From: a virus | UHGV virus genome: UHGV-0037349 | Reading direction: 5' to 3' (one strand) | DNA: 28,385 nt | Shown here: positions 12,753-22,259 of the stretch, piece by piece | Position numbering within the stretch: the first letter of the stretch is position 1 | Layout: the number at the start of each line of letters is the position of its first letter | The notes under the pieces: generated by a model | The model's database searches: none | Seen by the model: only the letters and a program-made list of their open reading frames with translations | What the model was told of the DNA's origin: nothing | Translations under genes and position numbers: made by a program

Positions 12753-14519
12753 ATGAACACCACACTGACACCCGCAGATCTCGATCCCCGTCGGCAGGCC
12801 ATGCTGCTGTACTTTCAGGGATACCGCGTAGCCCGCATTGCTGAAATGCTGGGCGAGAAAGTTGCAACCGTTCACAGCTGGAAAAAACGCGACAAGTGGG
12901 GTGACTATGGGCCGCTGGATCAGATGCAGCTCACCACCGCCGCACGCTACTGCCAGCTCATTATGAAGGAGCACAAAGAAGGGAAAGATTTCAAAGAGAT
13001 TGACCTGCTGGCGCGCCAGTCTGAGCGCCACGCGCGGATCGGCAAGTTTAACAATGGCGGCAACGAAGCCGACTTAAATCCTAACGTCGCCAACCGCAAC
13101 AAAGGCCCGCGCCGTCAGCCGGAAAAGAACGTTTTCACCGATGAACAGATTGAGAAGCTGGAAGAAATCTTCCATTCCTCCATGTTCAACTACCAGCGCC
13201 ACTGGTGGGAAGCCGGAAAAACCAACCGCATCCGCAACCTGCTGAAGTCACGCCAGATCGGCGCGACCTTTTACTTTGCCCGTGAAGCCCTGATTGACGC
13301 CCTGCTTACCGGGCGTAACCAGATTTTTCTTTCCGCCAGTAAGGCACAGGCCCACGTCTTTAAGCAGTACATCATCGACTTCGCCAAAGAAGTGGAGGTG
13401 GAGCTGAAAGGCGATCCGATGGTGCTTCCTAACGGGGCCACGCTTTACTTCCTCGGCACCAATGCCCGCACGGCCCAGAGTTATCACGGCAACCTGTATC
13501 TGGATGAATATTTCTGGATACCGAAATTTCAGGAGCTACGCAAAGTGGCTTCCGGTATGGCTATTCACAAGAAATGGCGGCAGACCTATTTTTCCACACC
13601 ATCCAGTCTGACCCACAGTGCTTATCCGTTCTGGTCCGGTGCGCTGTTCAACCGTGGGCGCAACAAAGCTGACAAGGTGGACATCGACCTGTCCCACAGC
13701 AATCTGGCCCCCGGCCTGCTGTGCGCAGACGGGCAATACCGTCAGATAGTCACCGTGGAAGATGCGGTGCGCGGCGGCTGTAACCTGTTCGACCTCGACC
13801 AGTTGCGCATGGAGTACAGCCCGGACGAATACCAGAACCTGCTGATGTGTGAGTTCGTGGACGATCTCGCGTCCGTGTTCCCGCTCAGCGAGCTGCAGGC
13901 GTGCATGGTGGACAGCTGGGAAGTCTGGACCGACTTTCATGCACTGGCGCTGCGCCCGTTTGGCTGGCGCGAAGTGTGGATCGGTTATGACCCGGCAAAA
14001 GGTACGCAGAACGGCGACAGTGCCGGATGCGTGGTGGTGGCTCCGCCAGCCGTGCCGGGTGGTAAGTTCCGCATTCTTGAGCGTCACCAGTGGCGCGGGA
14101 TGGACTTCCGCGCCCAGGCTGACGCCATCAAAAAACTCACCGAACAGTACAACGTTACGTATATCGGTATCGACTCGACCGGCGTTGGTCACGGGGTTTA
14201 TGAGAACGTGAAAGCGTTCTTTCCTGCCGTCCGGGAGTTTGTCTATAACCCCAATGTTAAAAATGCCCTGGTACTCAAGGCCTACGACATTATCAGCCAC
14301 CGCCGTCTGGAGTTTGACGCCGGACACACCGACATTGCGCAGTCATTCATGGCAATCCGTCGCGCAACCACCGCCAGCGGCAACCGCCCGACCTATGAAG
14401 CCAGCCGCAGCGAAGAAGCCAGCCACGCCGATCTGGCCTGGGCAACAATGCACGCACTGTTTAACGAACCGCTGCAGGGCGAATCCGCCAATACCAGCAA
14501 TATTGTGGAGATTTTTTGA
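12753..14519 (+). CDS. Terminase large (ATPase) subunit (P2 P-like)
   Basis: 588-aa ORF divergent from the capsid operon; N-terminus with LLYFQGYRVARIAEMLG is characteristic of P2-family gpP as I recall it. Confidence 0.9.
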   Translation: MNTTLTPADLDPRRQAMLLYFQGYRVARIAEMLGEKVATVHSWKKRDKWGDYGPLDQMQLTTAARYCQLIMKEHKEGKDFKEIDLLARQSERHARIGKFNNGGNEADLNPNVANRNKGPRRQPEKNVFTDEQIEKLEEIFHSSMFNYQRHWWEAGKTNRIRNLLKSRQIGATFYFAREALIDALLTGRNQIFLSASKAQAHVFKQYIIDFAKEVEVELKGDPMVLPNGATLYFLGTNARTAQSYHGNLYLDEYFWIPKFQELRKVASGMAIHKKWRQTYFSTPSSLTHSAYPFWSGALFNRGRNKADKVDIDLSHSNLAPGLLCADGQYRQIVTVEDAVRGGCNLFDLDQLRMEYSPDEYQNLLMCEFVDDLASVFPLSELQACMVDSWEVWTDFHALALRPFGWREVWIGYDPAKGTQNGDSAGCVVVAPPAVPGGKFRILERHQWRGMDFRAQADAIKKLTEQYNVTYIGIDSTGVGHGVYENVKAFFPAVREFVYNPNVKNALVLKAYDIISHRRLEFDAGHTDIAQSFMAIRRATTASGNRPTYEASRSEEASHADLAWATMHALFNEPLQGESANTSNIVEIF

Positions 14520-15547
14520 TGGGAAAGAGTAAGAAGAACCGCGCTGCGGCGACGAAACAGATCCAGCTTAAAAGCCAGACTACAGCCGAAGCATTCAGCT
14601 TCGGCGATCCCGTTCCTGTTCTGGACCGCCGCGAACTGCTGGACTATGTGGAATGCGTACAGACAGATCGCTGGTATGAGCCACCAGTAAGCTTTGACGG
14701 ACTGGCGCGCACCTTCCGCGCTGCCGTGCATCACAGTTCACCAATTGCGGTGAAATGCAACATTCTGACCAGTACCTACATCCCTCACCCGCTGCTCAGC
14801 CAGCAGGCTTTTTCACGTTTTGTGCAGGACTATCTGGTTTTTGGTAACGCCTACCTGGAAAAACGCACGAACCGCTTCGGAGAGGTCATCGCTCTTGAGC
14901 CTGCGCTGGCAAAATACACCCGACGCGGATTAGACCTGGATACCTACTGGTTTGTGCAATACGGCATGACTACGCAGCCGTATCAGTTCACGAAAGGCAG
15001 CATTTTTCATCTGATGGAACCGGACATCAACCAGGAGATCTACGGCCTGCCCGGTTATCTTTCTGCCATTCCGTCAGCCCTGCTCAACGAGTCCGCCACG
15101 CTGTTCCGTCGAAAGTATTACATTAACGGCAGTCATGCAGGCTTCATCATGTATATGACCGATGCCGCGCAGAACCAGGAGGATGTGAACAACCTCCGCA
15201 ATGCGATGAAAAGCGCCAAAGGCCCTGGCAACTTCCGCAATCTGTTTATGTACTCGCCTAACGGCAAAAAGGACGGACTTCAGATTATCCCGTTGTCAGA
15301 AGTCGCAGCGAAGGATGAGTTTCTGAATATCAAGAACGTGAGCCGTGATGACATGATGGCTGCGCACCGCGTGCCGCCGCAAATGATGGGGATAATGCCT
15401 AATAATGTTGGGGGGTTTGGGGATGTGGAGAAGGCAAGCCTTGTTTTTGTGAGGAATGAGTTAATACCATTACAGAGAAGACTAGAAGAGTTAAATAACT
15501 GGATAGGAGATAAAATCATATCCTTTGGAATATACACATTAAATTAA
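14516..15547 (+). CDS. Portal protein (P2 Q-like), with AT-rich, possibly replaced C-terminal tail
   Basis: 343-aa ORF overlapping the P stop by 4 bp. The last ~40 codons are strikingly AT-rich compared with the rest of the gene. Confidence 0.85.
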   Translation: MMGKSKKNRAAATKQIQLKSQTTAEAFSFGDPVPVLDRRELLDYVECVQTDRWYEPPVSFDGLARTFRAAVHHSSPIAVKCNILTSTYIPHPLLSQQAFSRFVQDYLVFGNAYLEKRTNRFGEVIALEPALAKYTRRGLDLDTYWFVQYGMTTQPYQFTKGSIFHLMEPDINQEIYGLPGYLSAIPSALLNESATLFRRKYYINGSHAGFIMYMTDAAQNQEDVNNLRNAMKSAKGPGNFRNLFMYSPNGKKDGLQIIPLSEVAAKDEFLNIKNVSRDDMMAAHRVPPQMMGIMPNNVGGFGDVEKASLVFVRNELIPLQRRLEELNNWIGDKIISFGIYTLN

Positions 15548-15575
15548 ATGAGTAAGGGCTAGGCCCTTACTCATT
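15547..15575. terminator. Perfect 13-bp inverted repeat between convergent portal and RT genes (probable bidirectional terminator or junction palindrome)
   Basis: aATGAGTAAGGGC-tag-GCCCTTACTCATt overlaps the stop codons of both Q (plus) and the RT (minus). Flanking sequence is AT-rich but has no clean U-tract. Confidence 0.4.
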
Positions 15576-16544
15576 CAATCTATCAATATATTCACTATAG
15601 TTAACATGCCCCTTAATTTTATCAAAATCCTTCTCAACTATTTTCCCAGTCCTCAATAAATGTTTATATGCTCTAATTTTATTTCGATAGCCTTTAGTCA
15701 ATCTAGGTTTATTTTCATGAACTAGAAAACCATGTACTTTTAATCTATTAGGAATCCTAGCTATTCTGAGTTTTTCCTCAGCCACAACCCAATTATCAGA
15801 TAGTAACAACTCTACAACATTATCTTTAAGTTCCTCGATATCAAATGTTTCATCATCACCGGAGAAGGTCAAATCATCAGCATATCTAGTATATTTAATA
15901 CCCGTATTAGAAATCAACTCATTAATCTTTAAGTCAGTTGACCTAAATACTAAATTTGAGATAACAGGGCTACTTGGCGCACCTTGCGGAAGTCTCTGAT
16001 TAAAGGTAAGTAATTCACTCAATTTAGCAGCCTGATCGGCTCTATATCCTATTTCAACTAATGTTGAAATCACTATATCTGAAGTGATCGTATGGAAAAA
16101 ATCTCTTAAATCAATAGACAGGATCCATTTTGCACCACAATGTTTACTTGCAGCTTCATATATCCCATTCTTACCTGGGATAAAAGCATATGCATTTTCA
16201 CTTATGCCAAGACTATGATTAATGCTTAAATGATGAGCGACCCAAGACTGAATGATTTTTATACTAACCTTGGGTGCTTCAATAATTCTTTTTTTCTTTC
16301 CTCTTCCTTTGGAAATAGAAAAAACACGATAGTATTTTGACTTATTCTTAATTAACGAAGTAATAAATTGTGGGCTTACACCAATGGCAACAGACAAGAT
16401 ACTCCAAGAAACTAATGGGGGAAGCCTGAGGCCTTGTAGTCGAATAAGTTCCGCATAATATCTATCTCTCAGCGGTGTGCTCAACGCCTTAAGAAACTGT
16501 TCGGCATCAGTGAATGTGAAAAATAAGGGTAGTGGCGTTTTCAT
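15567..16544 (-). CDS. Retron-type reverse transcriptase
   Basis: 325-aa ORF with RT motifs: FIPGKNGIYEAASKHCGAKWILSIDLRDFF (retron-like F-x-G ... H ... DIxxFF block), LPQGAPSSPVISNLV, YTRYADDLTFS (YADD catalytic box), and a downstream VHGFLV segment resembling the retron VTG region. Size fits retron RTs (about 300-330 aa) and is too small for the Abi-type RTs I recall. Confidence 0.8.
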   Translation of the reverse strand: MKTPLPLFFTFTDAEQFLKALSTPLRDRYYAELIRLQGLRLPPLVSWSILSVAIGVSPQFITSLIKNKSKYYRVFSISKGRGKKKRIIEAPKVSIKIIQSWVAHHLSINHSLGISENAYAFIPGKNGIYEAASKHCGAKWILSIDLRDFFHTITSDIVISTLVEIGYRADQAAKLSELLTFNQRLPQGAPSSPVISNLVFRSTDLKINELISNTGIKYTRYADDLTFSGDDETFDIEELKDNVVELLLSDNWVVAEEKLRIARIPNRLKVHGFLVHENKPRLTKGYRNKIRAYKHLLRTGKIVEKDFDKIKGHVNYSEYIDRLNE

Positions 16545-16715
16545 AAGGTCAATCCTTAAGCAAAGCTGATGAAAACTTTCGTTGATGACGCCTGCGAATC
16601 AGCAGACGTTTCGAAGGAACGACTGCTGATTCGCAGGCGCACATTCTGTCCGCGACCTTCACAAATGAGCATGATGCATACTCTCGTGAACGCCACTACC
16701 AACGTGAATATACCA
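16545..16715 (-). ncRNA. Candidate retron msr-msd non-coding RNA (intergenic region with long perfect hairpin)
   Basis: 171-bp gap between the upstream ORF and the RT. It contains a 17-bp perfect inverted repeat (CGCCTGCGAATCAGCAG / CTGCTGATTCGCAGGCG, 16589-16605 and 16623-16639) with a 17-nt loop and no U-tract behind it. Exact RNA ends and the a1/a2 repeats were not resolved by eye. Confidence 0.4.
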
Positions 16716-17459
16716 CTATAGATGTTTGCGTGCAAGATAAAGGACCCTCTCTATATCAGAACTTTGCCTAGATTTAGTCACTGGAACTATTTCTAACCCT
16801 GACAATGTCATTCTATAAGTTCCGTCATGGCTTCTTAATAAAAATCCTTTCTTACGTAAGTTGTCTAGCTTCCCATTCAGCCAATCAAGTGATTCAATAT
16901 GATAATCGCCATTATCAAGTTGACTGAACAATCTTGGAAGATCAAAGGGCTGACATTTTTTTGCCGCTCTTAAAATAACCATCATTGTAGGTTCAGGATT
17001 GTTTTTAGCCTCATATACAAATGAAGTCACTTTTATATTAAAACCGTTTAATATCCCTACAACTAACGACTCCCACTTCTCGCGTTCTGATAATGTAAGG
17101 TTTTTACAAAAGACATAAAGCACTGCGTTTTGCGAATCAAAGAAAGATAAATTCAAATCAGATATCTTCCCTTTTTTAAAATTACTTCTCGCTAATGCCA
17201 CTAAAGCCGCTTCAATATTGTCTTTATCTGAAAATGGTGAGTAACTAATCAACACTCTTACATTTAGCTTTTCTGTTATTCGTTTCACCAATAAAGATAT
17301 CTGGCGTTTTGTTATACTATTCGAAGCAGACAATGGCACTATTTTGTTAATTGGGATGATCAACAGAATTGTATCCATAAAATCTGTTACATCTTTAACT
17401 TTTATGAACGGGAATTTTACCAACAATTCTGATAATATTTTCTGGTTAGACAAAGCCAA
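16716..17459 (-). CDS. Hypothetical protein, retron-associated (candidate effector/accessory protein)
   Basis: 247-aa ORF co-oriented with the RT, AT-rich, and overlapping the upstream ORF by 14 bp. No catalytic motif recognised; the C-terminal segment (LRKKGFLLRSHDGTYRMTLSGLEIV) could be a winged-helix-like region, which is speculative. Confidence 0.55.
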   Translation of the reverse strand: MALSNQKILSELLVKFPFIKVKDVTDFMDTILLIIPINKIVPLSASNSITKRQISLLVKRITEKLNVRVLISYSPFSDKDNIEAALVALARSNFKKGKISDLNLSFFDSQNAVLYVFCKNLTLSEREKWESLVVGILNGFNIKVTSFVYEAKNNPEPTMMVILRAAKKCQPFDLPRLFSQLDNGDYHIESLDWLNGKLDNLRKKGFLLRSHDGTYRMTLSGLEIVPVTKSRQSSDIERVLYLARKHL

Positions 17460-17970
17460 TCTCCTTCATAATTCTGGTAACCTTCGATCTTTCTGAATTA
17501 ATGGTTTGTAGCCACCCCTTAGCCGAAGCCACTGATGTTTTATTAATCGAAAAACTGCCATTACAGAATATCATCTCAATTTCCGGCTCATAATCAACAA
17601 CTCCCCTAATTGTATATGCCAATGCCATAGTTGAAGCCATATTGTTCAGTGAAGTACGTATTAAGCTCTTTTTAGATTTATATTCACATAAAGTTATATC
17701 GCCAATTTTTTCTGATTTTTGGAGCTCAACTTCTATCTTTCTACTTACACTATCACGTAATAATTTTGGAACATCTGCATGCTTGACCTTGCCCCAATTG
17801 GAATCAATAGTTGAAACAAACTCACGGACGTTAAGAAAACAAGCATAATAATACCGATTAAAAGCAGAACGACCATATGCATCTGCTAATATTGCGTGCA
17901 CCTCCCCCTTTCTATGGGTTGTATTAGCCTGCTTAACAAGGTGGTCTGCTACAAGGTGTAAAACAGTCAT
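17446..17970 (-). CDS. Hypothetical protein, first gene of the retron-associated operon
   Basis: 174-aa ORF, AT-rich, start preceded by AAGGGTAGG. Contains HRKGEVH (an Rx4H arrangement) near the N-terminus; function unknown. Confidence 0.5.
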   Translation of the reverse strand: MTVLHLVADHLVKQANTTHRKGEVHAILADAYGRSAFNRYYYACFLNVREFVSTIDSNWGKVKHADVPKLLRDSVSRKIEVELQKSEKIGDITLCEYKSKKSLIRTSLNNMASTMALAYTIRGVVDYEPEIEMIFCNGSFSINKTSVASAKGWLQTINSERSKVTRIMKEIGFV

Positions 17971-18029
17971 AGTGGTGCCTACCCTTTTAATATCTCTCCT
18001 ATATATAACAAAACGCGGCTAATTTCCAT

Positions 18030-18065
18030 ATTTGCGCGCGCTCGTATCCCCGCCACGCCTGCCCG
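18030..18065. other. Probable cos site (cohesive end region)
   Basis: Minus-strand reading GGCGTGGCGGGGATACGAGCGCGCGC resembles my recollection of P2/186 cohesive ends (GGCG(A/T)GGCGGGGAAAGCA...). Position between portal-side genes and the early region is as expected. Recalled from memory, not verified. Confidence 0.45.
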
Positions 18066-18102
18066 CTTTATGTAGTGGTTTTCATGCAGGTGCATGATCT
18101 AC

Positions 18103-18128
18103 GCAAAAGCCCGCCAGTTCTGGCGGGC
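18103..18128 (-). terminator. Rho-independent terminator-like hairpin
   Basis: GCCCGCCAG-ttc-CTGGCGGGC perfect 9-bp GC-rich stem; on the minus strand it is followed by TTTTG. Lies ~270 bp downstream of the 219-aa gene. Confidence 0.35.
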
Positions 18129-18398
18129 TTCAGCTAAAACGATCCTCAAACGATCATGCGGATTCATGCAGCATAGACATGCACCTGTGCGCCTTTAATC
18201 AAACAGGGAATAATTATTTGTTCAGCGGGAGTAGCAATATAGCGGCGGCTATTGGTTTGGAAGGGCTTATGATGACTGTTTTTGGTTAGAGTTTGAACGC
18301 CCAACATCGCCGGGCGGTGGTATTACTACATCATGGCAATGAGAAGGGTGAACCCTTTGCCAGTTTGTCCGACGATGATGTCCATCCAGAGTAAGCGT

Positions 18399-19058
18399 TT
18401 ATTCTGTTGAGATTGTAGATATTTCGGCTTGTTTTTTCTCTATGTAGATCCGACATTCCGCAAGGCATTTACCTACGGCACCACCGAAGTTTGGCCCTGA
18501 CGAAAGCAGCAATGCATCGACATTCTTGATTGATTCAAAGAAGGAAGGTGAGGTTTCAGGATTAAGGTATGTCATCAATAACATCCTTGCTGAAAGGGTG
18601 CGATGCGATGATGTAATGTAGCTTTCATGTGCTGCATTTCTCTTATCAATAAAATCGTTATTACCCTTAAGAATGTAATCCATTGCAAGGTTATAATCGT
18701 TTTTGTACCTATTAGATTCAAGCGCTAAGGATAGGTACTGGGCACATGATTCCCGCACGTTCCGACATTCTTCTTTTTTTATCTCAATTTCCGTAGCAAT
18801 TTGAGTTTGCACTTTCAGTGCTTTGGTTTGCTGCGCAATATTTTTGTCGAATTCAGATGCTTGCCGTTTTGAGGTGATTTCAAATTGGCGGTGTGAACGA
18901 TTCATAGCCCGCCATGCAACAAAAGCAGTTGCCGCAGCTGGCAGAACAGCTTTTGCGAGGTCAAACCATGGAGTCAGGGGCTCCTTTTGACTCGCAATTT
19001 GTACCGTTACCACGTCTTTAGCGGGCTTCAGTACTTCCAATAACTGAATGATGTCCAT
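18399..19058 (-). CDS. Hypothetical single-pass membrane protein (cargo between cos and the DinI-like module)
   Basis: 219-aa ORF with one predicted TM helix (LAKAVLPAAATAFVAWRAM) followed by a charged helical region; AGGAAAAAGG upstream of the ATG. No homology recognised. Confidence 0.55.
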   Translation of the reverse strand: MDIIQLLEVLKPAKDVVTVQIASQKEPLTPWFDLAKAVLPAAATAFVAWRAMNRSHRQFEITSKRQASEFDKNIAQQTKALKVQTQIATEIEIKKEECRNVRESCAQYLSLALESNRYKNDYNLAMDYILKGNNDFIDKRNAAHESYITSSHRTLSARMLLMTYLNPETSPSFFESIKNVDALLLSSGPNFGGAVGKCLAECRIYIEKKQAEISTISTE

Positions 19059-19259
19059 TGCCTTTTTCCTGAGAAAAAGAAACCATCATAGCAAAAAGCC
19101 TGCCGCTTGCTAGGGGCTTCCCACGCCTAACCCTTCACGAAATTGAATCCTCTCCGGCCTTTTCGTTATCTGTCCGCATTGAGGGCGGCTAACGCCTCGT
19201 ACGGCTCGTTGTTCAACCTTGCTGGCGCCAGAAGCAAGTTCAGACGCCAGCAACGTTTC

Positions 19260-19493
19260 TTAATGCAGCCAGCTGTCGTCTTCCCACACCTTCTGCATAA
19301 TTTTCATCACTTGTTTTCTTTCTTCGTCCAGTTGCAGTCCGGTCAGTTCCACACCGTTAGAGCTACCTTTGCGGATACGAATTACCGTTTTGGGATACAG
19401 GGGGCGCAGATTGCGGTAAAGCTCGGATTCAAGGGCGTCCAGGATAGACTGGCTAATCTTCTGCTCTTTATCGATCATTATTTCAATGCGCAT
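19260..19493 (-). CDS. DinI-family protein
   Basis: Start taken at internal ATG 19493 (MRIEIMIDKEQ...) with GAGGTGA upstream. The C-terminus IMQKVWEDDSWL resembles the DinI C-terminus as I recall it (ETWESADDWF). The ORF track extends it to 19565. Confidence 0.6.
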   Translation of the reverse strand: MRIEIMIDKEQKISQSILDALESELYRNLRPLYPKTVIRIRKGSSNGVELTGLQLDEERKQVMKIMQKVWEDDSWLH

Positions 19494-19503
19494 AAAAGTC
19501 ACC

Positions 19504-19692
19504 TCAACTGATGACATCCATTGAGCGGTTGTATTCGTGGGTTCTGATTTTTGCCATGAGTTCATCTGTTAGTTCAGAAATCCACTGCAAAGCCAGCCCC
19601 TTCTCTTCATCACTACACTCACTAGCCGCTACAAGCTTAAGAAAAAAATCAATGCGCTGGAGCTTCAAAGACTCCAAAAAATAGTCCTGCAT
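19504..19692 (-). CDS. Small hypothetical protein, first gene downstream of the LexA box (Tum-region-like)
   Basis: 62-aa ORF immediately upstream of the DinI-like gene; the upstream extension of the DinI ORF overlaps it in another frame. Confidence 0.35.
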   Translation of the reverse strand: MQDYFLESLKLQRIDFFLKLVAASECSDEEKGLALQWISELTDELMAKIRTHEYNRSMDVIS

Positions 19693-19732
19693 CTTTCCTC
19701 CTATGACACCAAAGCAATGCTGTATACATAAC

Positions 19733-19752
19733 CACTGTTTATATTTACAGTA
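19733..19752. promoter_or_regulatory. LexA (SOS) box
   Basis: caCTGTttatatttACAGta matches the CTGT-N8-ACAG LexA consensus and lies ~45 bp upstream of the minus-strand small ORF/DinI-like genes, in an AT-rich promoter-like region. Confidence 0.55.
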
Positions 19753-19844
19753 TATAATAATCTTACTGATGTAAAACGTTTTTTTACGTTCATCAGCCTG
19801 AAATGCCTGGTATTATTAAGAGCACGAATTGTTAACCCGCGTAA

Positions 19845-22259
19845 TTAATACAGGTTCCGCCACTTATCATCTTCCTGCAAACGCTGGTTCCGATAGAAGA
19901 TACGCAGGCCTGCTCCTGACGGAATACTGCCGCCACGAAGGAGTAAATAGACCTCTTTCTCGCTGCCATCAAATCCTCTGGACTTCAGTTCATAGACGAG
20001 CTGCTGTCGCTGATGGTCTGTAATTCGCTGTTTGTAGTCTTTACGCCGTTTCGGTTTCACCAAGCGTAACCTTGCAGCCAATTCCCGGCGCTCTTTTTTG
20101 CTCATACTGTGCAGGTATTCGTGCAACTCCTTGTCATCCATGCGGGTAATGTCCGTTCTGGTATCCCCATCAGCTGATTTGTCTTTCCCTTGTTGGTTCA
20201 AATTTTCAGCCAGGGGACAGTTATTGCCACGAGTCCAAGGGGCGCAAGCGCCCTGGTCGGCTGCCGCCTCCTGAACGTCAACGGCCTTACGAACCATTTT
20301 CCACTTCACTGCATGAGTGCAGATCTTGCCCTCTGCAATGGGTGACCAGATGCCATAAATACGAATACCGTGATCACCATAGGCGGTCGGCTCTTCGTTG
20401 ATTTCATAAGCGGTTCTGATCAAGTGATATTTGCGGGGAACCAACACGCCGCCCTGCTTCATAATGTAGGTGGCAAAACAGCCAGCATCAGCAGCAGCCA
20501 GAATGGCATCAAGACGCGGATCATCCAGTACCGGCGCACCTGCTTTTTTGTCACCCTGCTGCCTTGCCGCCTGACCAGCCAGCAATCGCAGTTCACGGTA
20601 AGCCTGACGCCCCGGAATGCCAAAGAAGCGGAATTGCTGAACACGATGCAGAGACGCCCAAGCATTAACGTATTCAGCGTTATCACGCAGGGATTTACCC
20701 GTTTCCTTGCTGATCTCGCCAGCCAGACCACGCCCGTCAATGTTCTTACTGATGTATTTCGCGATGTAGCTTGTCGGCGTTCCTTTGCGCGGGTTAATCA
20801 GCTCAGACTTAAAGCGTGGCCCCGTGTTATTGCCCAGTTCCTCGCGGTCTTCACGGATGGCAAACTTACGCAGTAATGCAGTGATGGCGCGGCGGTCTTT
20901 TTTACGCATGAAGCACATGAGATGCCAGTGCACAGTACCGTCATGATGCGGCTCAGCCACCCGCACGCCATACCACCGCAATCCGGCTTTGTGCATCGCC
21001 TTACGAAATGCAGCAAACATGCCGACCAGATAATCACTGCTTTGTCTTACCGTCGCATTTGTCCAGGTCGGGTTTGGTCTGCCGTTATTGAGCGTGGAAT
21101 GGAAACGTGACGGACAGGTGATGGTGTAGAAAACGGCGCAGTCACCGCGCATTTCCGCGATAAGCTCCAGACCTTTAACGCAGGCCATCATCTCATTGCG
21201 GCGATGTGCCGGGTTGCTGCTGCTGGCGTTTACCACATCTTCCATATCCAGCGTGTCTCCGTCTTCGTTCACCAGTTCATGAGAACGGAAAAACTCCAGC
21301 GACTTGCGGCGCTGCTCACGTTTATGCGTCACTGCTTCATAGCTGACATAGGGAGATGCTTTTTTGCTGACCAGACAGACAGCACGCAACTGCTCTTCCC
21401 GCCATTCGCAACGCATCTTCCACAATTTTCGATACCACCAGTCGGCGCAAAGCATACGTGCCAGCGAACCCGGTATGAGTTCATAGGGCACAGGTTTGCG
21501 GCGGTTTCTTTTCCGACGAAGTTTCTCAAACGCAGGCGGGATAACATCCAGACGCAGGGTTTCCGCAGCCACCTTTTCCCATGTCTTGCGGATTTCTTCT
21601 GGCTTAACGTCATCGGTGGCGTACAAATCACCACAAGCGGCCTCAAGACACATGCTCATATGCGCTGCTACCAGGGTGGACAGGCGTTTCACCTGATCCT
21701 GGCTCATTTCAGGCAGGATCAGCAGCCCCTCCAGCCCTTGATGGCTTGCCATAAAACGGAAAGAAACAGATAGCTGACTGTCACGTACACAATCCAGTCG
21801 CTCCAGACATGGCTTAATCGTCTCACGCAAATAGCGGGAATAAGCCTTTGGCCTGCCCAGGCTGCTGAAGTATTCGATACGTTGCATCAGCGGCTTGCTG
21901 ATATGAGAAGGCTGGGCGCTGACATCTGCCAGAATGACCATGTCCGGGTTAAAACGCTGCTGCTCATGCGCCAGCTTTGCCCGGCTAATGAGCTTATCCT
22001 GCTCCATTTCGCGCTGGACAGGATCACGGGATTCATTAAAGAAATAACGCTCCCAGACCTGCTCACTCAGTGCCTCGCGGCGCAGTTGTTCCTGCTCGTT
22101 ATCGGCAGCGTACAGAGTGATCAGGTTTGAAAGTGCAGACTCCGGCGCAACTTCCGCCGGATCCAGATAAGGGTTAATGGCCTTTTTCGGGCCGTTCCAT
22201 GAAAATGCTGCGGCAGCCTCGTTAAAGCCGCTAGAGTTGCTCATATCGTCATGACTCAT
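19845..22259 (-). CDS. Replication initiation endonuclease (P2 A-like rolling-circle initiator)
   Basis: 804-aa ORF with HUH-like motif (TVHWHLMCF) and a downstream tyrosine motif (YIAKYISK); start overlaps the Dam stop. Confidence 0.85.

What the first reader, a model, noticed from the sequence alone, without database searches (positions are those of the whole stretch)
18399..19058. Single-pass membrane protein cargo gene between cos and the SOS-regulated module
A 219-aa protein with one TM helix and a long charged helical tail, with its own AT-rich promoter region, sits in the variable segment between cos and the replication genes. Small membrane proteins at such variable prophage positions are often superinfection-exclusion or abortive-infection factors. 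Nothing in the sequence identifies the function.
Basis: inference. Interest (0 to 1): 0.5.

Follow-up and report, generated by a model that had tools for sequence, protein, structure and literature searches.

The report
Orphan membrane-protein cargo gene beside cos
A rare, uncharacterised gene for a small membrane-anchored helical protein has been dropped as a self-contained 1-kb cassette into a known cargo slot next to the packaging site of a 186/P2-type E. coli prophage; it is probably a phage-competition factor, but nothing yet proves what it does.

Summary
The 219-aa ORF at 18399-19058 (minus strand) is a real gene: dN/dS is 0.15 against a Klebsiella copy. It lies in a 1,003-bp cassette (18185-19187) between cos and a LexA-box/DinI-like operon of a 186-like prophage. 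That slot has sharp, re-used boundaries. It is empty (6 bp) in 328 of 1,276 E. coli genomes carrying both flanks and holds other cargo elsewhere. Only 3 of 5,426 complete genomes carry this gene.

The family is tiny (34 clusters among 1.84 billion proteins), confined to Enterobacterales, and matches nothing in Pfam, PADLOC, PHROGs, NCBIfam or PDB sequences. Most copies are solitary prophage cargo, in P2-like hotspots and between Q and holin in Yersinia lambdoid prophages.

The predicted protein has a conserved acidic N-tail, one TM segment, a helical stalk and a four-helix bundle with a variable head. The TM segment is weak here but clear in relatives. The fold resembles chemoreceptor sensor bundles, without significant support. 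Flanking charges predict N-out/C-in.

There is only a conserved extended -10, and the cassette sits upstream of the SOS operon's terminator.

An anti-phage role (exclusion or abortive infection) is the best guess at about 0.4, resting on position and architecture only. This is an ordinary kind of finding in a known hotspot, from a new family.

The parts
18185..19187 (.). Cargo cassette (1,003 bp) inserted between cos and the DinI-like gene
   Evidence: BLAST of the window against 'empty' 186-like prophages: L016 and L015 have 6 bp in place of 18185-19187. EC590 (L025) and BL21(DE3) (L026) share the same left junction at 18184, and EC590 shares the right junction at 19188/9, with different cargo.
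18399..19058 (-). 219-aa ORF (stop codon included): bitopic membrane protein of an uncharacterised family
   Evidence: ORF list. The exact protein is on record as 'hypothetical protein' / UniProt A0A2X1J0R1. dN/dS is 0.147 against the Klebsiella copy. No match in Pfam, PADLOC, PHROGs or NCBIfam.
18975..19058 (-). Codons 1-28: acidic N-terminal tail; residues 1-22 (MDIIQLLEVLKPAKDVVTVQIA) are the most conserved part of the family
   Evidence: Alignments A1 and A2. Column entropy is 1.24 bits for residues 1-22 against about 3.0 bits in the head. AlphaFold2 confidence is low here.
18903..18974 (-). Codons 29-52: hydrophobic membrane-anchor segment with conserved Pro40, followed by conserved Ser55 and a basic juxtamembrane stretch
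   Evidence: Kyte-Doolittle 19-residue mean is 1.24 here and 1.6-2.9 in 27 of 35 relatives. Flank charges over 35 proteins: N-side 93 K/R against 170 D/E; C-side 108 K/R against 32 D/E.
18402..18902 (-). Codons 53-219: helical stalk continuous with the TM helix, then a four-helix bundle. Residues 111-162 form a variable head. Four partly conserved Cys (98, 105, 198, 202).
19085..19093 (-). Putative extended -10 promoter element TGcTATGAT, 26 nt upstream of the ATG
   Evidence: Read from the sequence. Conserved in the K. aerogenes copy L008. Not found by the consensus scan, which requires a -35 element. This is inference, not shown.
19061..19070 (-). Shine-Dalgarno-like AGGAAAAAGG just upstream of the ATG
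   Evidence: Read from the sequence.
18105..18133 (-). Backbone intrinsic-terminator-like hairpin (GCCCGCCAG-aact-CTGGCGGGC, then TTTT) between the cassette and cos. It is the first such signal downstream of the gene.
   Evidence: ViennaRNA fold of 18100-18185, minus strand. The sequence is shared with empty prophages. The scan tool did not list it.
18048..18059 (-). cos core GGCGTGGCGGGG
   Evidence: Pattern search. Its identity as the start of the 186/P2 cohesive end is from my own knowledge. Rousset et al. place cos in this gpA-gpQ interval.
19219..19253 (-). Hairpin without a U-tract just after the DinI-like stop codon; it is backbone, not cassette
   Evidence: Also present in empty prophages.
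19735..19750 (.). LexA-box-like palindrome CTGT-N8-ACAG upstream of the 62-aa ORF and the DinI-like gene. It defines the SOS-regulated unit whose 3' end holds the cassette.
   Evidence: It is the only such site in the 28-kb window. Sequence read. DinI Pfam match at E = 2.5e-22.

Best explanation
Shown: a self-contained single-gene cargo cassette (a 'moron') has been swapped into a sharply bounded slot between cos and the DinI-like/SOS operon of a 186-type (P2-family) prophage. It encodes a member of a very small, unannotated, Enterobacterales-only family that travels alone, mostly in prophages.

Predicted: the protein is a bitopic inner-membrane protein. It has a short, highly conserved acidic N-tail, one TM helix, a basic juxtamembrane stretch, a helical stalk and a four-helix-bundle head whose distal part is the most variable region.

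Inferred function: a phage-versus-phage competition factor acting at the inner membrane.
- The variable head would be the specificity module that binds a component of an incoming or competing phage.
- The conserved N-tail, TM and stalk would be the constant module that anchors the protein. On engagement it would either perturb the membrane (abortive-infection-like) or obstruct the DNA-entry conduit (superinfection exclusion).
- The charge bias predicts N-out/C-in, which puts the head in the cytoplasm. I therefore favour the sensor-plus-membrane-effector (abortive) version at about 0.25 over a periplasmic injection block at about 0.15.

Expression (inferred): a weak constitutive extended -10 promoter, plus read-through from the LexA-controlled operon on SOS induction.
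For: Cassette and slot:
- 18185-19187 is replaced by 6 bp in empty relatives, and the same junctions are re-used by other cargo.
- The slot is empty in 328 of 1,276 genomes with both flanks. The gene is in 3 of 5,426 complete genomes.

Independence from neighbours:
- The gene occurs with retron IX and with a STAS-like pair instead. Retron IX occurs without the gene.
- There is no conserved partner across about 15 contexts.

Phage association. About 11 of 15 contexts are prophages:
- 186-like and P2-like hotspots.
- A P2 remnant retained across Enterobacter.
- Q-to-holin cargo sites in three Yersinia species.
- Next to the small terminase gene in another phage type.

Prior from position:
- The gpA-gpQ/cos region of P2-like phages is a validated defence hotspot. 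[quoted passage not shown]
- 15-32% of unknown P2 hotspot proteins score as antiviral by machine learning (PMC13586616).
- The window's own portal-to-cos slot holds a complete type IX retron.

Gene and protein:
- Real, constrained gene: dN/dS 0.147.
- Architecture: AlphaFold2 pLDDT 84.
- Conserved N-tail and stalk against a variable head.
- TM supported at family level, with a charge bias.
Against: - No sequence or significant structural similarity to any known defence or exclusion protein: PADLOC 0 hits, PHROGs none, Pfam none, BFVD nothing below E = 0.04, Foldseek PDB best E = 0.064.
- No homologue in 50,697 deposited phage genomes or 72,556 plasmids.
- Expression signals point at least as much to induction or lytic growth as to lysogeny. 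The cassette lies inside the SOS operon, upstream of its terminator. The Yersinia copies are the first gene after antiterminator Q.
- The Q-holin site also carries non-defence cargo (own knowledge).
- Some copies sit in ordinary chromosomal neighbourhoods.
- The topology is a charge-rule prediction only. The TM of this particular protein is weak.
- dN/dS in the head is 0.18, so this one pairwise comparison gives no evidence of positive selection.
Confidence: 0.4

Rival explanations
1. A lytic-cycle accessory. The protein is made when the prophage is induced or late in infection. It modulates the host envelope: lysis timing (antiholin-like), cell division, or prevention of re-infection of the already infected cell. 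It would not protect the lysogen.
For: - The cassette sits 72 bp after the DinI-like stop codon and about 50 bp before the operon's terminator-like hairpin. The intervening hairpin has no U-tract, so LexA-controlled transcripts should read into the gene.
- In three Yersinia species the homologue lies between antiterminator Q and the holin: directly upstream of the holin in two, and with two small genes in between in Y. ruckeri.
- The TM of the close subfamily is Ala/Thr-rich and weakly hydrophobic. That is reminiscent of signal-anchor-release domains of lysis regulators (the resemblance is from my own knowledge).
- One relative gave a faint ZapG-like Pfam hit at E = 0.051.
Against: - No match to any holin, antiholin, spanin or division-inhibitor family.
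- In the 186-like phages the gene is far from the lysis genes.
- All phages concerned already carry full lysis cassettes.
- The gene is dispensable for nearly all 186-like prophages.
- A conserved extended -10 suggests expression in the lysogen too.
- Distant relatives have strongly hydrophobic TM segments, unlike signal-anchor-release domains.
Confidence: 0.25
2. A lysogenic-conversion or host-fitness membrane protein unrelated to phage competition, for example envelope-stress tolerance or a signalling decoy. It would be carried as a generic moron and sometimes domesticated by the host.
For: - One clade is fixed in Enterobacter inside a decayed P2 remnant. It is listed in 83 blocks of the collection, on contigs up to 4.9 Mb.
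- Other copies lie next to the cus operon, next to an SslE/T2SS locus, and in an island of unknown genes.
- The closest structural neighbours are sensor four-helix bundles of chemoreceptors and histidine kinases.
- Morons are known to have diverse non-defence roles (PMC3594210).
Against: - No output domain and no second TM, so it is not a conventional sensor.
- Most contexts are prophages, at sites enriched for inter-phage conflict genes.
- Extreme rarity and patchiness fit conflict genes better than a general fitness factor.
Confidence: 0.2
3. It is a component of a multi-gene system with its neighbours: the type IX retron across cos, or the DinI-like SOS module.
For: Physical proximity in this window. 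The same arrangement recurs in strain PSJ-12. It also appears to be listed in Rousset et al. Table S5A (NZ_QRII01000005), where WP_103724289 is probably this gene (not verified).
Against: - Retron IX occurs without the gene in NH-21.
- The gene occurs without the retron in PSS-15 and B27.
- The gene occurs without DinI in K. aerogenes.
- The gene occurs in unrelated phage types.
- cos separates it from the retron in the packaged genome.
Confidence: 0.03
4. It is a chance ORF or a decaying pseudogene.
For: No annotation anywhere. The G+C content (42%) is below the window's 49%.
Against: - dN/dS is 0.147 over 660 bp.
- Full-length homologues extend down to 19% identity, with a conserved N-terminus and motifs.
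- AlphaFold2 gives a confident fold.
Confidence: 0.02

Closest known systems
Cargo of the cos-proximal gpA-gpQ defence hotspot of P2-like phages (old and tin of P2; systems catalogued by Rousset et al. 2022, PMC9122126)
   Same: Same genomic address: between the replication gene A and the portal gene Q, adjacent to cos. Same behaviour: patchy, swappable and mix-and-match with other cargo.
   Different: No sequence relation to old, tin or any PADLOC model. It occupies the cos-to-DinI sub-slot rather than the larger portal-to-cos sub-slot. Its activity is untested.
Small inner-membrane superinfection-exclusion proteins of prophages (HK97 gp15/YebO family, P22 SieA, T4 Imm and Sp)
   Same: A prophage moron encoding a small protein predicted to sit in the inner membrane. 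It is a single gene with no enzymatic domain (PMC3594210; PMC10883804).
   Different: - No detectable homology.
- Larger (219 aa), with about 165 residues in a folded stalk plus four-helix bundle.
- Charge bias puts that domain in the cytoplasm, whereas the injection blockers whose topology I recall (T4 Sp, Sie2009: own knowledge) act at the periplasmic face. SieA has three predicted TM helices.
Four-helix-bundle sensor domains of chemoreceptors and histidine kinases (4HB_MCP type: Tsr/Tar, PcaY, QseE, NarX/NarQ, TorS)
   Same: - The same proteins head the Foldseek list.
- As in those receptors, the first bundle helix is continuous with a TM helix.
   Different: - No sequence match: no hit to any chemoreceptor or histidine-kinase sensor-domain family in Pfam, and Foldseek E >= 0.064.
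- Identity is 5-13%.
- No second TM and no HAMP, kinase or methyl-accepting output.
- A stalk of about 40 residues lies between the membrane and the bundle.
- The predicted side of the membrane is opposite.
Sensor-plus-membrane-effector abortive-infection designs (lambda RexA/RexB; TM effectors of CBASS, Pycsar and retrons; SLATT domains)
   Same: The proposed logic is the same: a variable recognition part coupled to a conserved membrane part. TM proteins in hotspot systems are generally read as suicide effectors (PMC9122126). Two relatives gave faint SLATT_1 and SLATT_5 hits at E = 0.007 and 0.013.
   Different: Here it is one polypeptide with a single TM, whereas SLATT has two and RexB four (own knowledge). 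No partner gene. No significant homology. Pore formation would need oligomerisation, which was not tested.

Membership tests
Phage moron / hotspot cargo cassette | Discrete insertion between conserved backbone genes, absent from close relatives | tested here: met
   18185-19187 corresponds to 6 bp in L015 and L016. Other cargo shares the junctions in L025 and L026. The gene is in 3 of 5,426 genomes, and 328 genomes have an empty slot.
Phage moron / hotspot cargo cassette | Own promoter and own terminator (an independent transcription unit) | tested here: inconclusive
   The consensus scan finds no sigma-70 promoter. A conserved extended -10, TGcTATGAT, is present. There is no terminator inside the cassette; the first one downstream is the backbone hairpin at 18105-18133.
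Known anti-phage defence systems (PADLOC-DB 2.0.0) | Significant match to a model of a known or candidate defence protein | tested here: not met
   0 families at E <= 1 for the 219-aa protein. In the same call its three neighbours hit RT_IX, HTH_IX and HEPN_IX at 1e-52 to 1e-129.
Type IX retron (RT + HTH + HEPN + ncRNA) | Obligate co-occurrence with the retron genes | tested here: not met
   The retron occurs without the gene. The gene occurs without the retron.
Superinfection-exclusion membrane proteins (gp15/YebO, SieA, Imm, Sp) | Sequence homology to a characterised member | tested here: not met
   No Pfam, PHROG or NCBIfam hit for the protein or for 35 family members.
Superinfection-exclusion membrane proteins (gp15/YebO, SieA, Imm, Sp) | Inner-membrane location | tested here: inconclusive
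   One hydrophobic segment, weak here (Kyte-Doolittle 1.24) and 1.6-2.9 in relatives. No signal peptide or lipobox by inspection. Localisation cannot be tested with these tools.
Superinfection-exclusion membrane proteins (gp15/YebO, SieA, Imm, Sp) | Blocks DNA entry of superinfecting phage when expressed from the prophage | not testable with these tools
   Needs plating, adsorption and DNA-injection assays.
4HB_MCP-type sensor domain (chemoreceptor / histidine-kinase ligand-binding domain) | Match to the family's sequence model | tested here: not met
   Pfam scans of the protein and of 35 relatives give no 4HB_MCP or related hit.
4HB_MCP-type sensor domain (chemoreceptor / histidine-kinase ligand-binding domain) | Antiparallel four-helix bundle continuous with a TM helix | tested here: met
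   [not shown]
4HB_MCP-type sensor domain (chemoreceptor / histidine-kinase ligand-binding domain) | Flanked by two TM helices, periplasmic, and coupled to a cytoplasmic output module | tested here: not met
   The protein ends at residue 219 after the fourth helix, with one hydrophobic segment only. Flank charges predict the bundle to be cytoplasmic.
Holin / antiholin / spanin lysis proteins | Match to a lysis-protein family, or a place in a lysis cassette as the only copy of that function | tested here: not met
   No Pfam or PHROG lysis family matches. The Yersinia prophages with a homologue already have a holin and endolysin, plus a predicted spanin (Phage_lysis or LysC).

The most novel reading that the evidence does not exclude
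The family is a previously unrecognised single-gene anti-phage system. A bitopic inner-membrane protein would use a variable cytoplasmic four-helix-bundle head to sense a phage product. Its conserved stalk, TM and periplasmic N-tail would then oligomerise to depolarise the membrane or block the entry conduit. It would be boosted by SOS read-through, so that an induced cell is also protected from competitors.
Probability: 0.3. Interest if true: 0.55.

Novelty: new member of a known kind. Interest (0 to 1): 0.35.

Why it matters
If the gene has anti-phage activity, it adds a compact (660-bp), partner-free, membrane-anchored defence module. It has no relative among catalogued systems and a readily swappable variable head, which makes it a tractable model for how a single-pass membrane protein senses and stops a phage.

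Independently of function, the locus shows that the cos-to-DinI interval of 186-like prophages is a second cargo slot beside the main portal-to-cos hotspot. Its junctions are precise to the base pair. Cargo there is placed inside an SOS-controlled transcript. That is relevant to how prophage cargo is regulated during induction.

If the gene has no such activity, it is one more hypothetical moron.

Tried and rejected
Searches that found nothing:
- Family libraries (Pfam, PADLOC, PHROGs, NCBIfam) for the protein, and Pfam and PHROGs for all 35 aligned relatives. Only sub-threshold noise: Gliadin, DUF7935, single SLATT and ZapG-like hits.
- A profile search of PDB sequences. Nothing below E = 0.08.
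- Foldseek against viral models (BFVD) and PDB. Nothing significant. AFDB50 was not available.
- tblastn of the protein and two distant relatives against 50,697 phage genomes and 72,556 plasmids. No match.
- The scan of species-representative genomes gave one locus only.
- Literature searches by protein accession found nothing. Supplements of the 2026 P2/P4 paper are not held.
- The Rfam scan of the whole window found 0 families.

Ideas considered and rejected:
- Part of the retron. It occurs independently of the retron.
- A spanin or holin. No family match, and the functions are already present.
- A periplasmic disulfide-stapled domain. Only 16 of 35 relatives keep all four Cys, and total Cys is odd in 16 of 35.
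- A coiled-coil stalk. The best heptad register has only 50% hydrophobic a/d positions, against a 36% background.
- An AT-rich promoter. The region is 50% G+C.
Full report
**Setting**

The window is a 186-type (P2-family) prophage of E. coli. Around the finding, the features run in this order:

| Feature | Coordinates | Strand |
|---|---|---|
| Terminase ATPase | 12753-14519 | + |
| Portal | 14516-15547 | + |
| Type IX retron RT | 15567-16544 | - |
| Type IX retron HTH_IX | 16716-17459 | - |
| Type IX retron HEPN_IX | 17446-17970 | - |
| 219-aa ORF | 18399-19058 | - |
| DinI-like gene | within 19260-19565 | - |
| 62-aa ORF | 19504-19692 | - |
| Replication endonuclease A | 19845-22259 | - |

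- The three retron proteins match PADLOC models at E = 6e-129, 1.5e-61 and 1.4e-52.
- The cos core GGCGTGGCGGGG lies at 18059-18048 on the minus strand. Its identity as the start of the 186/P2 cohesive end is from my own knowledge.
- The only CTGT-N8-ACAG (LexA-box-like) site in the window is at 19735-19750. It lies just upstream of the 62-aa ORF and the DinI-like gene.

- The ORF exists at exactly the stated coordinates, on the minus strand, and is 219 aa.
- It is a constrained gene. Against the 87%-identical K. aerogenes copy, dN = 0.072 and dS = 0.49, so dN/dS = 0.147.
- All relatives start MDI..., which supports the start codon.
- The exact protein is on record only as 'hypothetical protein' (UniProt A0A2X1J0R1). 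Its 90%-identity cluster holds 36 distinct sequences; the listed ones were seen on a few hundred E. coli contigs.

**The cassette and its slot**

- Alignment with related prophages shows that 18185-19187 (1,003 bp) is an insertion.
  - Strain NH-21 has the same retron IX but only 6 bp at this place. So does ACN001, which carries a DUF262 gene instead of the retron.
- The left junction (...GACATGCAC| at 18184) is shared exactly by two other prophages with different cargo.
  - EC590 holds a 280-aa and a 71-aa gene there.
  - BL21(DE3) holds a 111-aa gene on the other strand.
- The right junction (|GCTAACGCCTCG at 19188) is shared by EC590.
- Using a query made of the two flanks, 328 of 1,276 E. 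coli genomes with a match have the slot empty. In most of the rest the flanks are separated.
- Only 3 of 5,426 complete genomes carry this gene. One has retron IX across cos. Two have a STAS-like/DUF4325 pair instead.
- The gene is therefore a free-standing module in a variable slot, not a core gene and not a retron component.
- The region between gpA and gpQ next to cos is the published defence hotspot of P2-like phages (PMC9122126).

**Expression signals**

- The consensus scan finds no sigma-70 promoter in 17900-19900.
- The 129 bp upstream of the ORF inside the cassette are 50% G+C. The 'AT-rich promoter' is not confirmed.
- By inspection there is an extended -10, TGcTATGAT (19093-19085, minus strand), 26 nt before the ATG. 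An AGGAAAAAGG ribosome-binding site follows. Both are conserved in the Klebsiella copy.
- The DinI-like stop codon is followed only by a hairpin without a U-tract (19253-19219).
- The first terminator-like hairpin with a U-tract on the minus strand is backbone sequence at about 18133-18105, between the cassette and cos.
- The cassette is thus inserted into the 3' end of the LexA-box operon, upstream of its terminator.
- Read-through on SOS induction is a reasonable inference. It has not been shown.

**The family**

- A word-indexed search of 5.8 billion proteins gave 27 hits.
- An exhaustive profile search of 1.84 billion cluster representatives gave only 34 at E <= 1e-3. Most are about 200-240 aa; a few are shorter fragments and one weak hit is a 633-aa protein.
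- A second profile search added a Yersinia clade.
- Hits that carry a source name come from Escherichia, Klebsiella, Enterobacter, Buttiauxella, Yersinia and one compost metagenome; many others are unnamed metagenomic sequences. Every name given by a source is 'hypothetical' or 'uncharacterised'.
- The sequence libraries listed under Tried and rejected gave no match.

**Genomic contexts of relatives**

| Context | Locus |
|---|---|
| Same slot of a K. aerogenes 186-like prophage, without DinI | L008 |
| P2-like prophage with a Toprim primase, between the replication gene and ogr/portal | L014 |
| Decayed P2 remnant retained across Enterobacter (83 collection blocks) | L003-L005 |
| Y. pseudotuberculosis and Y. 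enterocolitica lambdoid prophages, directly between antiterminator Q and the holin | L019-L021, L024 |
| Y. ruckeri lambdoid prophage, between the Q region and the holin, with a methylase and a hydrolase gene in between | L017, L018 |
| Divergent from the small terminase gene of a Mu_F/portal_3-type phage | L022, L009 |
| Next to an integrated phiX-like microvirus | L010 |
| Non-phage: beside the cus operon | L006 |
| Non-phage: an island with a resolvase | L012 |
| Non-phage: beside SslE/T2SS | L023 |

- No partner gene recurs across these contexts.
- Neighbours of unknown function in two of them have no PADLOC hit.

**The protein**

- With the 35-sequence alignment, AlphaFold2 gives mean pLDDT 84.3 and pTM 0.63.
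  - Residues 1-28 have low confidence.
  - One continuous helix spans 29-130.
  - Further helices span 134-164, 171-186 and 191-216.
  - In other words: a TM segment, a stalk, and a four-helix bundle.
- Foldseek puts the same proteins on top but with non-significant E-values of 0.064 or more.
- The hydrophobic segment is weak in this protein: Kyte-Doolittle 1.24, and a crude Hessa-scale sum of about +7 kcal/mol.
- The aligned segment is 1.6-2.9 in 27 of 35 relatives, and a conserved Pro sits in it.
- Flank charges across the family are strongly asymmetric. The N-side has 93 K/R against 170 D/E. The 15 residues after the segment have 108 K/R against 32 D/E.
  - By the positive-inside rule this predicts N-out/C-in. 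The bundle would then be cytoplasmic and the 28-residue tail periplasmic.
- The four cysteines (98, 105, 198, 202) are all present in only 16 of 35 relatives. Total Cys is odd in 16 of 35. This gives no support to obligatory periplasmic disulfides.
- Conservation is uneven.
  - The N-tail 1-22 is the most conserved region (1.24 bits).
  - The stalk 73-110 comes next (1.78 bits).
  - The distal bundle 111-162 is the most variable (about 3.0 bits, with indels).
  - Pairwise dN/dS there is 0.18, so positive selection is not shown.

**Interpretation**

What is shown: a mobile single-gene cassette in a defined cargo slot of a known hotspot, encoding a new small family of predicted bitopic membrane proteins. 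What it does is inference.

I rank an anti-phage role first, at about 0.4. The reasons are:
- the address of the cassette;
- its mix-and-match behaviour;
- its retention in a decaying prophage;
- the division of the protein into a conserved module and a variable module.

Within that, a cytoplasmic sensor head coupled to a membrane-acting constant part (abortive type) fits the predicted topology better than a periplasmic injection block.

The main rival, at about 0.25, is a lytic-cycle accessory affecting lysis timing, division or the envelope.
- The cassette lies inside the SOS transcript.
- The Yersinia copies sit in the late operon, upstream of the holin.

A phage-unrelated host-fitness moron comes next, at about 0.2. 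Membership of the retron system and a spurious ORF are essentially excluded.

**Comparison with what is known**

- The protein works, at most, like the small inner-membrane exclusion proteins (HK97 gp15, P22 SieA, T4 Imm/Sp), or like sensor-plus-TM-effector abortive systems.
- It fails every sequence-based membership test for them.
- It also lacks the second TM and the output module that define chemoreceptor-type sensors.

**Verdict**

- This is a genuine, well-delimited cargo gene of a new, very rare family, in an already described hotspot.
- The kind of thing is familiar. The family and its mechanism are unknown.
- Interest is moderate (0.35). It would rise if plating assays show defence.

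Noticed in passing
window 15567-17970 (minus strand): A complete type IX retron fills the portal-to-cos slot: RT_IX (E = 6e-129), HTH_IX (1.5e-61) and HEPN_IX (1.4e-52) in PADLOC. The same retron occurs in other 186-like prophages, with or without the 219-aa gene.
   Followed up: partly
window 16545-16715 (minus strand): The 171-bp gap between the retron's HTH gene and its RT folds unusually well as RNA: -77.6 kcal/mol, z = -7.6 against shuffles, with a near-perfect hairpin stem of about 22 pairs. It is a good candidate for the retron's msr-msd non-coding RNA. Rfam has no match.
   Followed up: partly
window 19735-19750: A single LexA-box-like palindrome (TACTGTAAATATAAACAGT) lies upstream of a 62-aa ORF and a DinI-like gene. 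The arrangement recalls, from memory, the LexA-controlled tum (antirepressor) unit of phage 186.
   Followed up: partly
window 17979-18167: RefSeq annotates a 'hypothetical protein, internal stop' pseudogene in the matching genome. It spans the cos core at 18048-18059, so it is probably an annotation artefact rather than a decayed gene.
   Followed up: no
L010 290-5714: A homologue (P0013) lies beside what looks like an integrated phiX174-like microvirus in an enterobacterial metagenome contig. The Pfam hits are Phage_F, Phage_G, Microvir_H, Microvir_J, gpD, Phage_B, Phage_C and a GPA-type replication protein.
   Followed up: no
L008 8-1684 and 9226-11577: The K. aerogenes 186-like prophage carries a 558-aa SNIPE/T5orf172 protein next to its CI repressor. 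It also has three unknown genes (269, 220 and 282 aa) in the portal-to-cos slot, none with a PADLOC hit.
   Followed up: partly
L002 4582-5894: In strain PSS-15 (L002) the portal-to-cos slot holds a STAS-like (DUF4325) protein plus a 324-aa hypothetical protein. Strain B27, the third genome with the gene, gives the same match span and lacks the retron-side flank. A DUF4325 pairing is also listed among P2 hotspot loci by Rousset et al..
   Followed up: no
L019 10136-11628: The Y. pseudotuberculosis lambdoid prophage carrying a homologue also encodes a Ser/Thr protein kinase plus PP2C phosphatase pair, directly after its lysis cassette.
   Followed up: no
L003-L005 3786-5666: The Enterobacter P2-like remnant that retains a homologue also keeps a TIR_2-domain gene. 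One or two small genes follow it, one with a faint Trypsin_2 hit. This may be a defence module.
   Followed up: no
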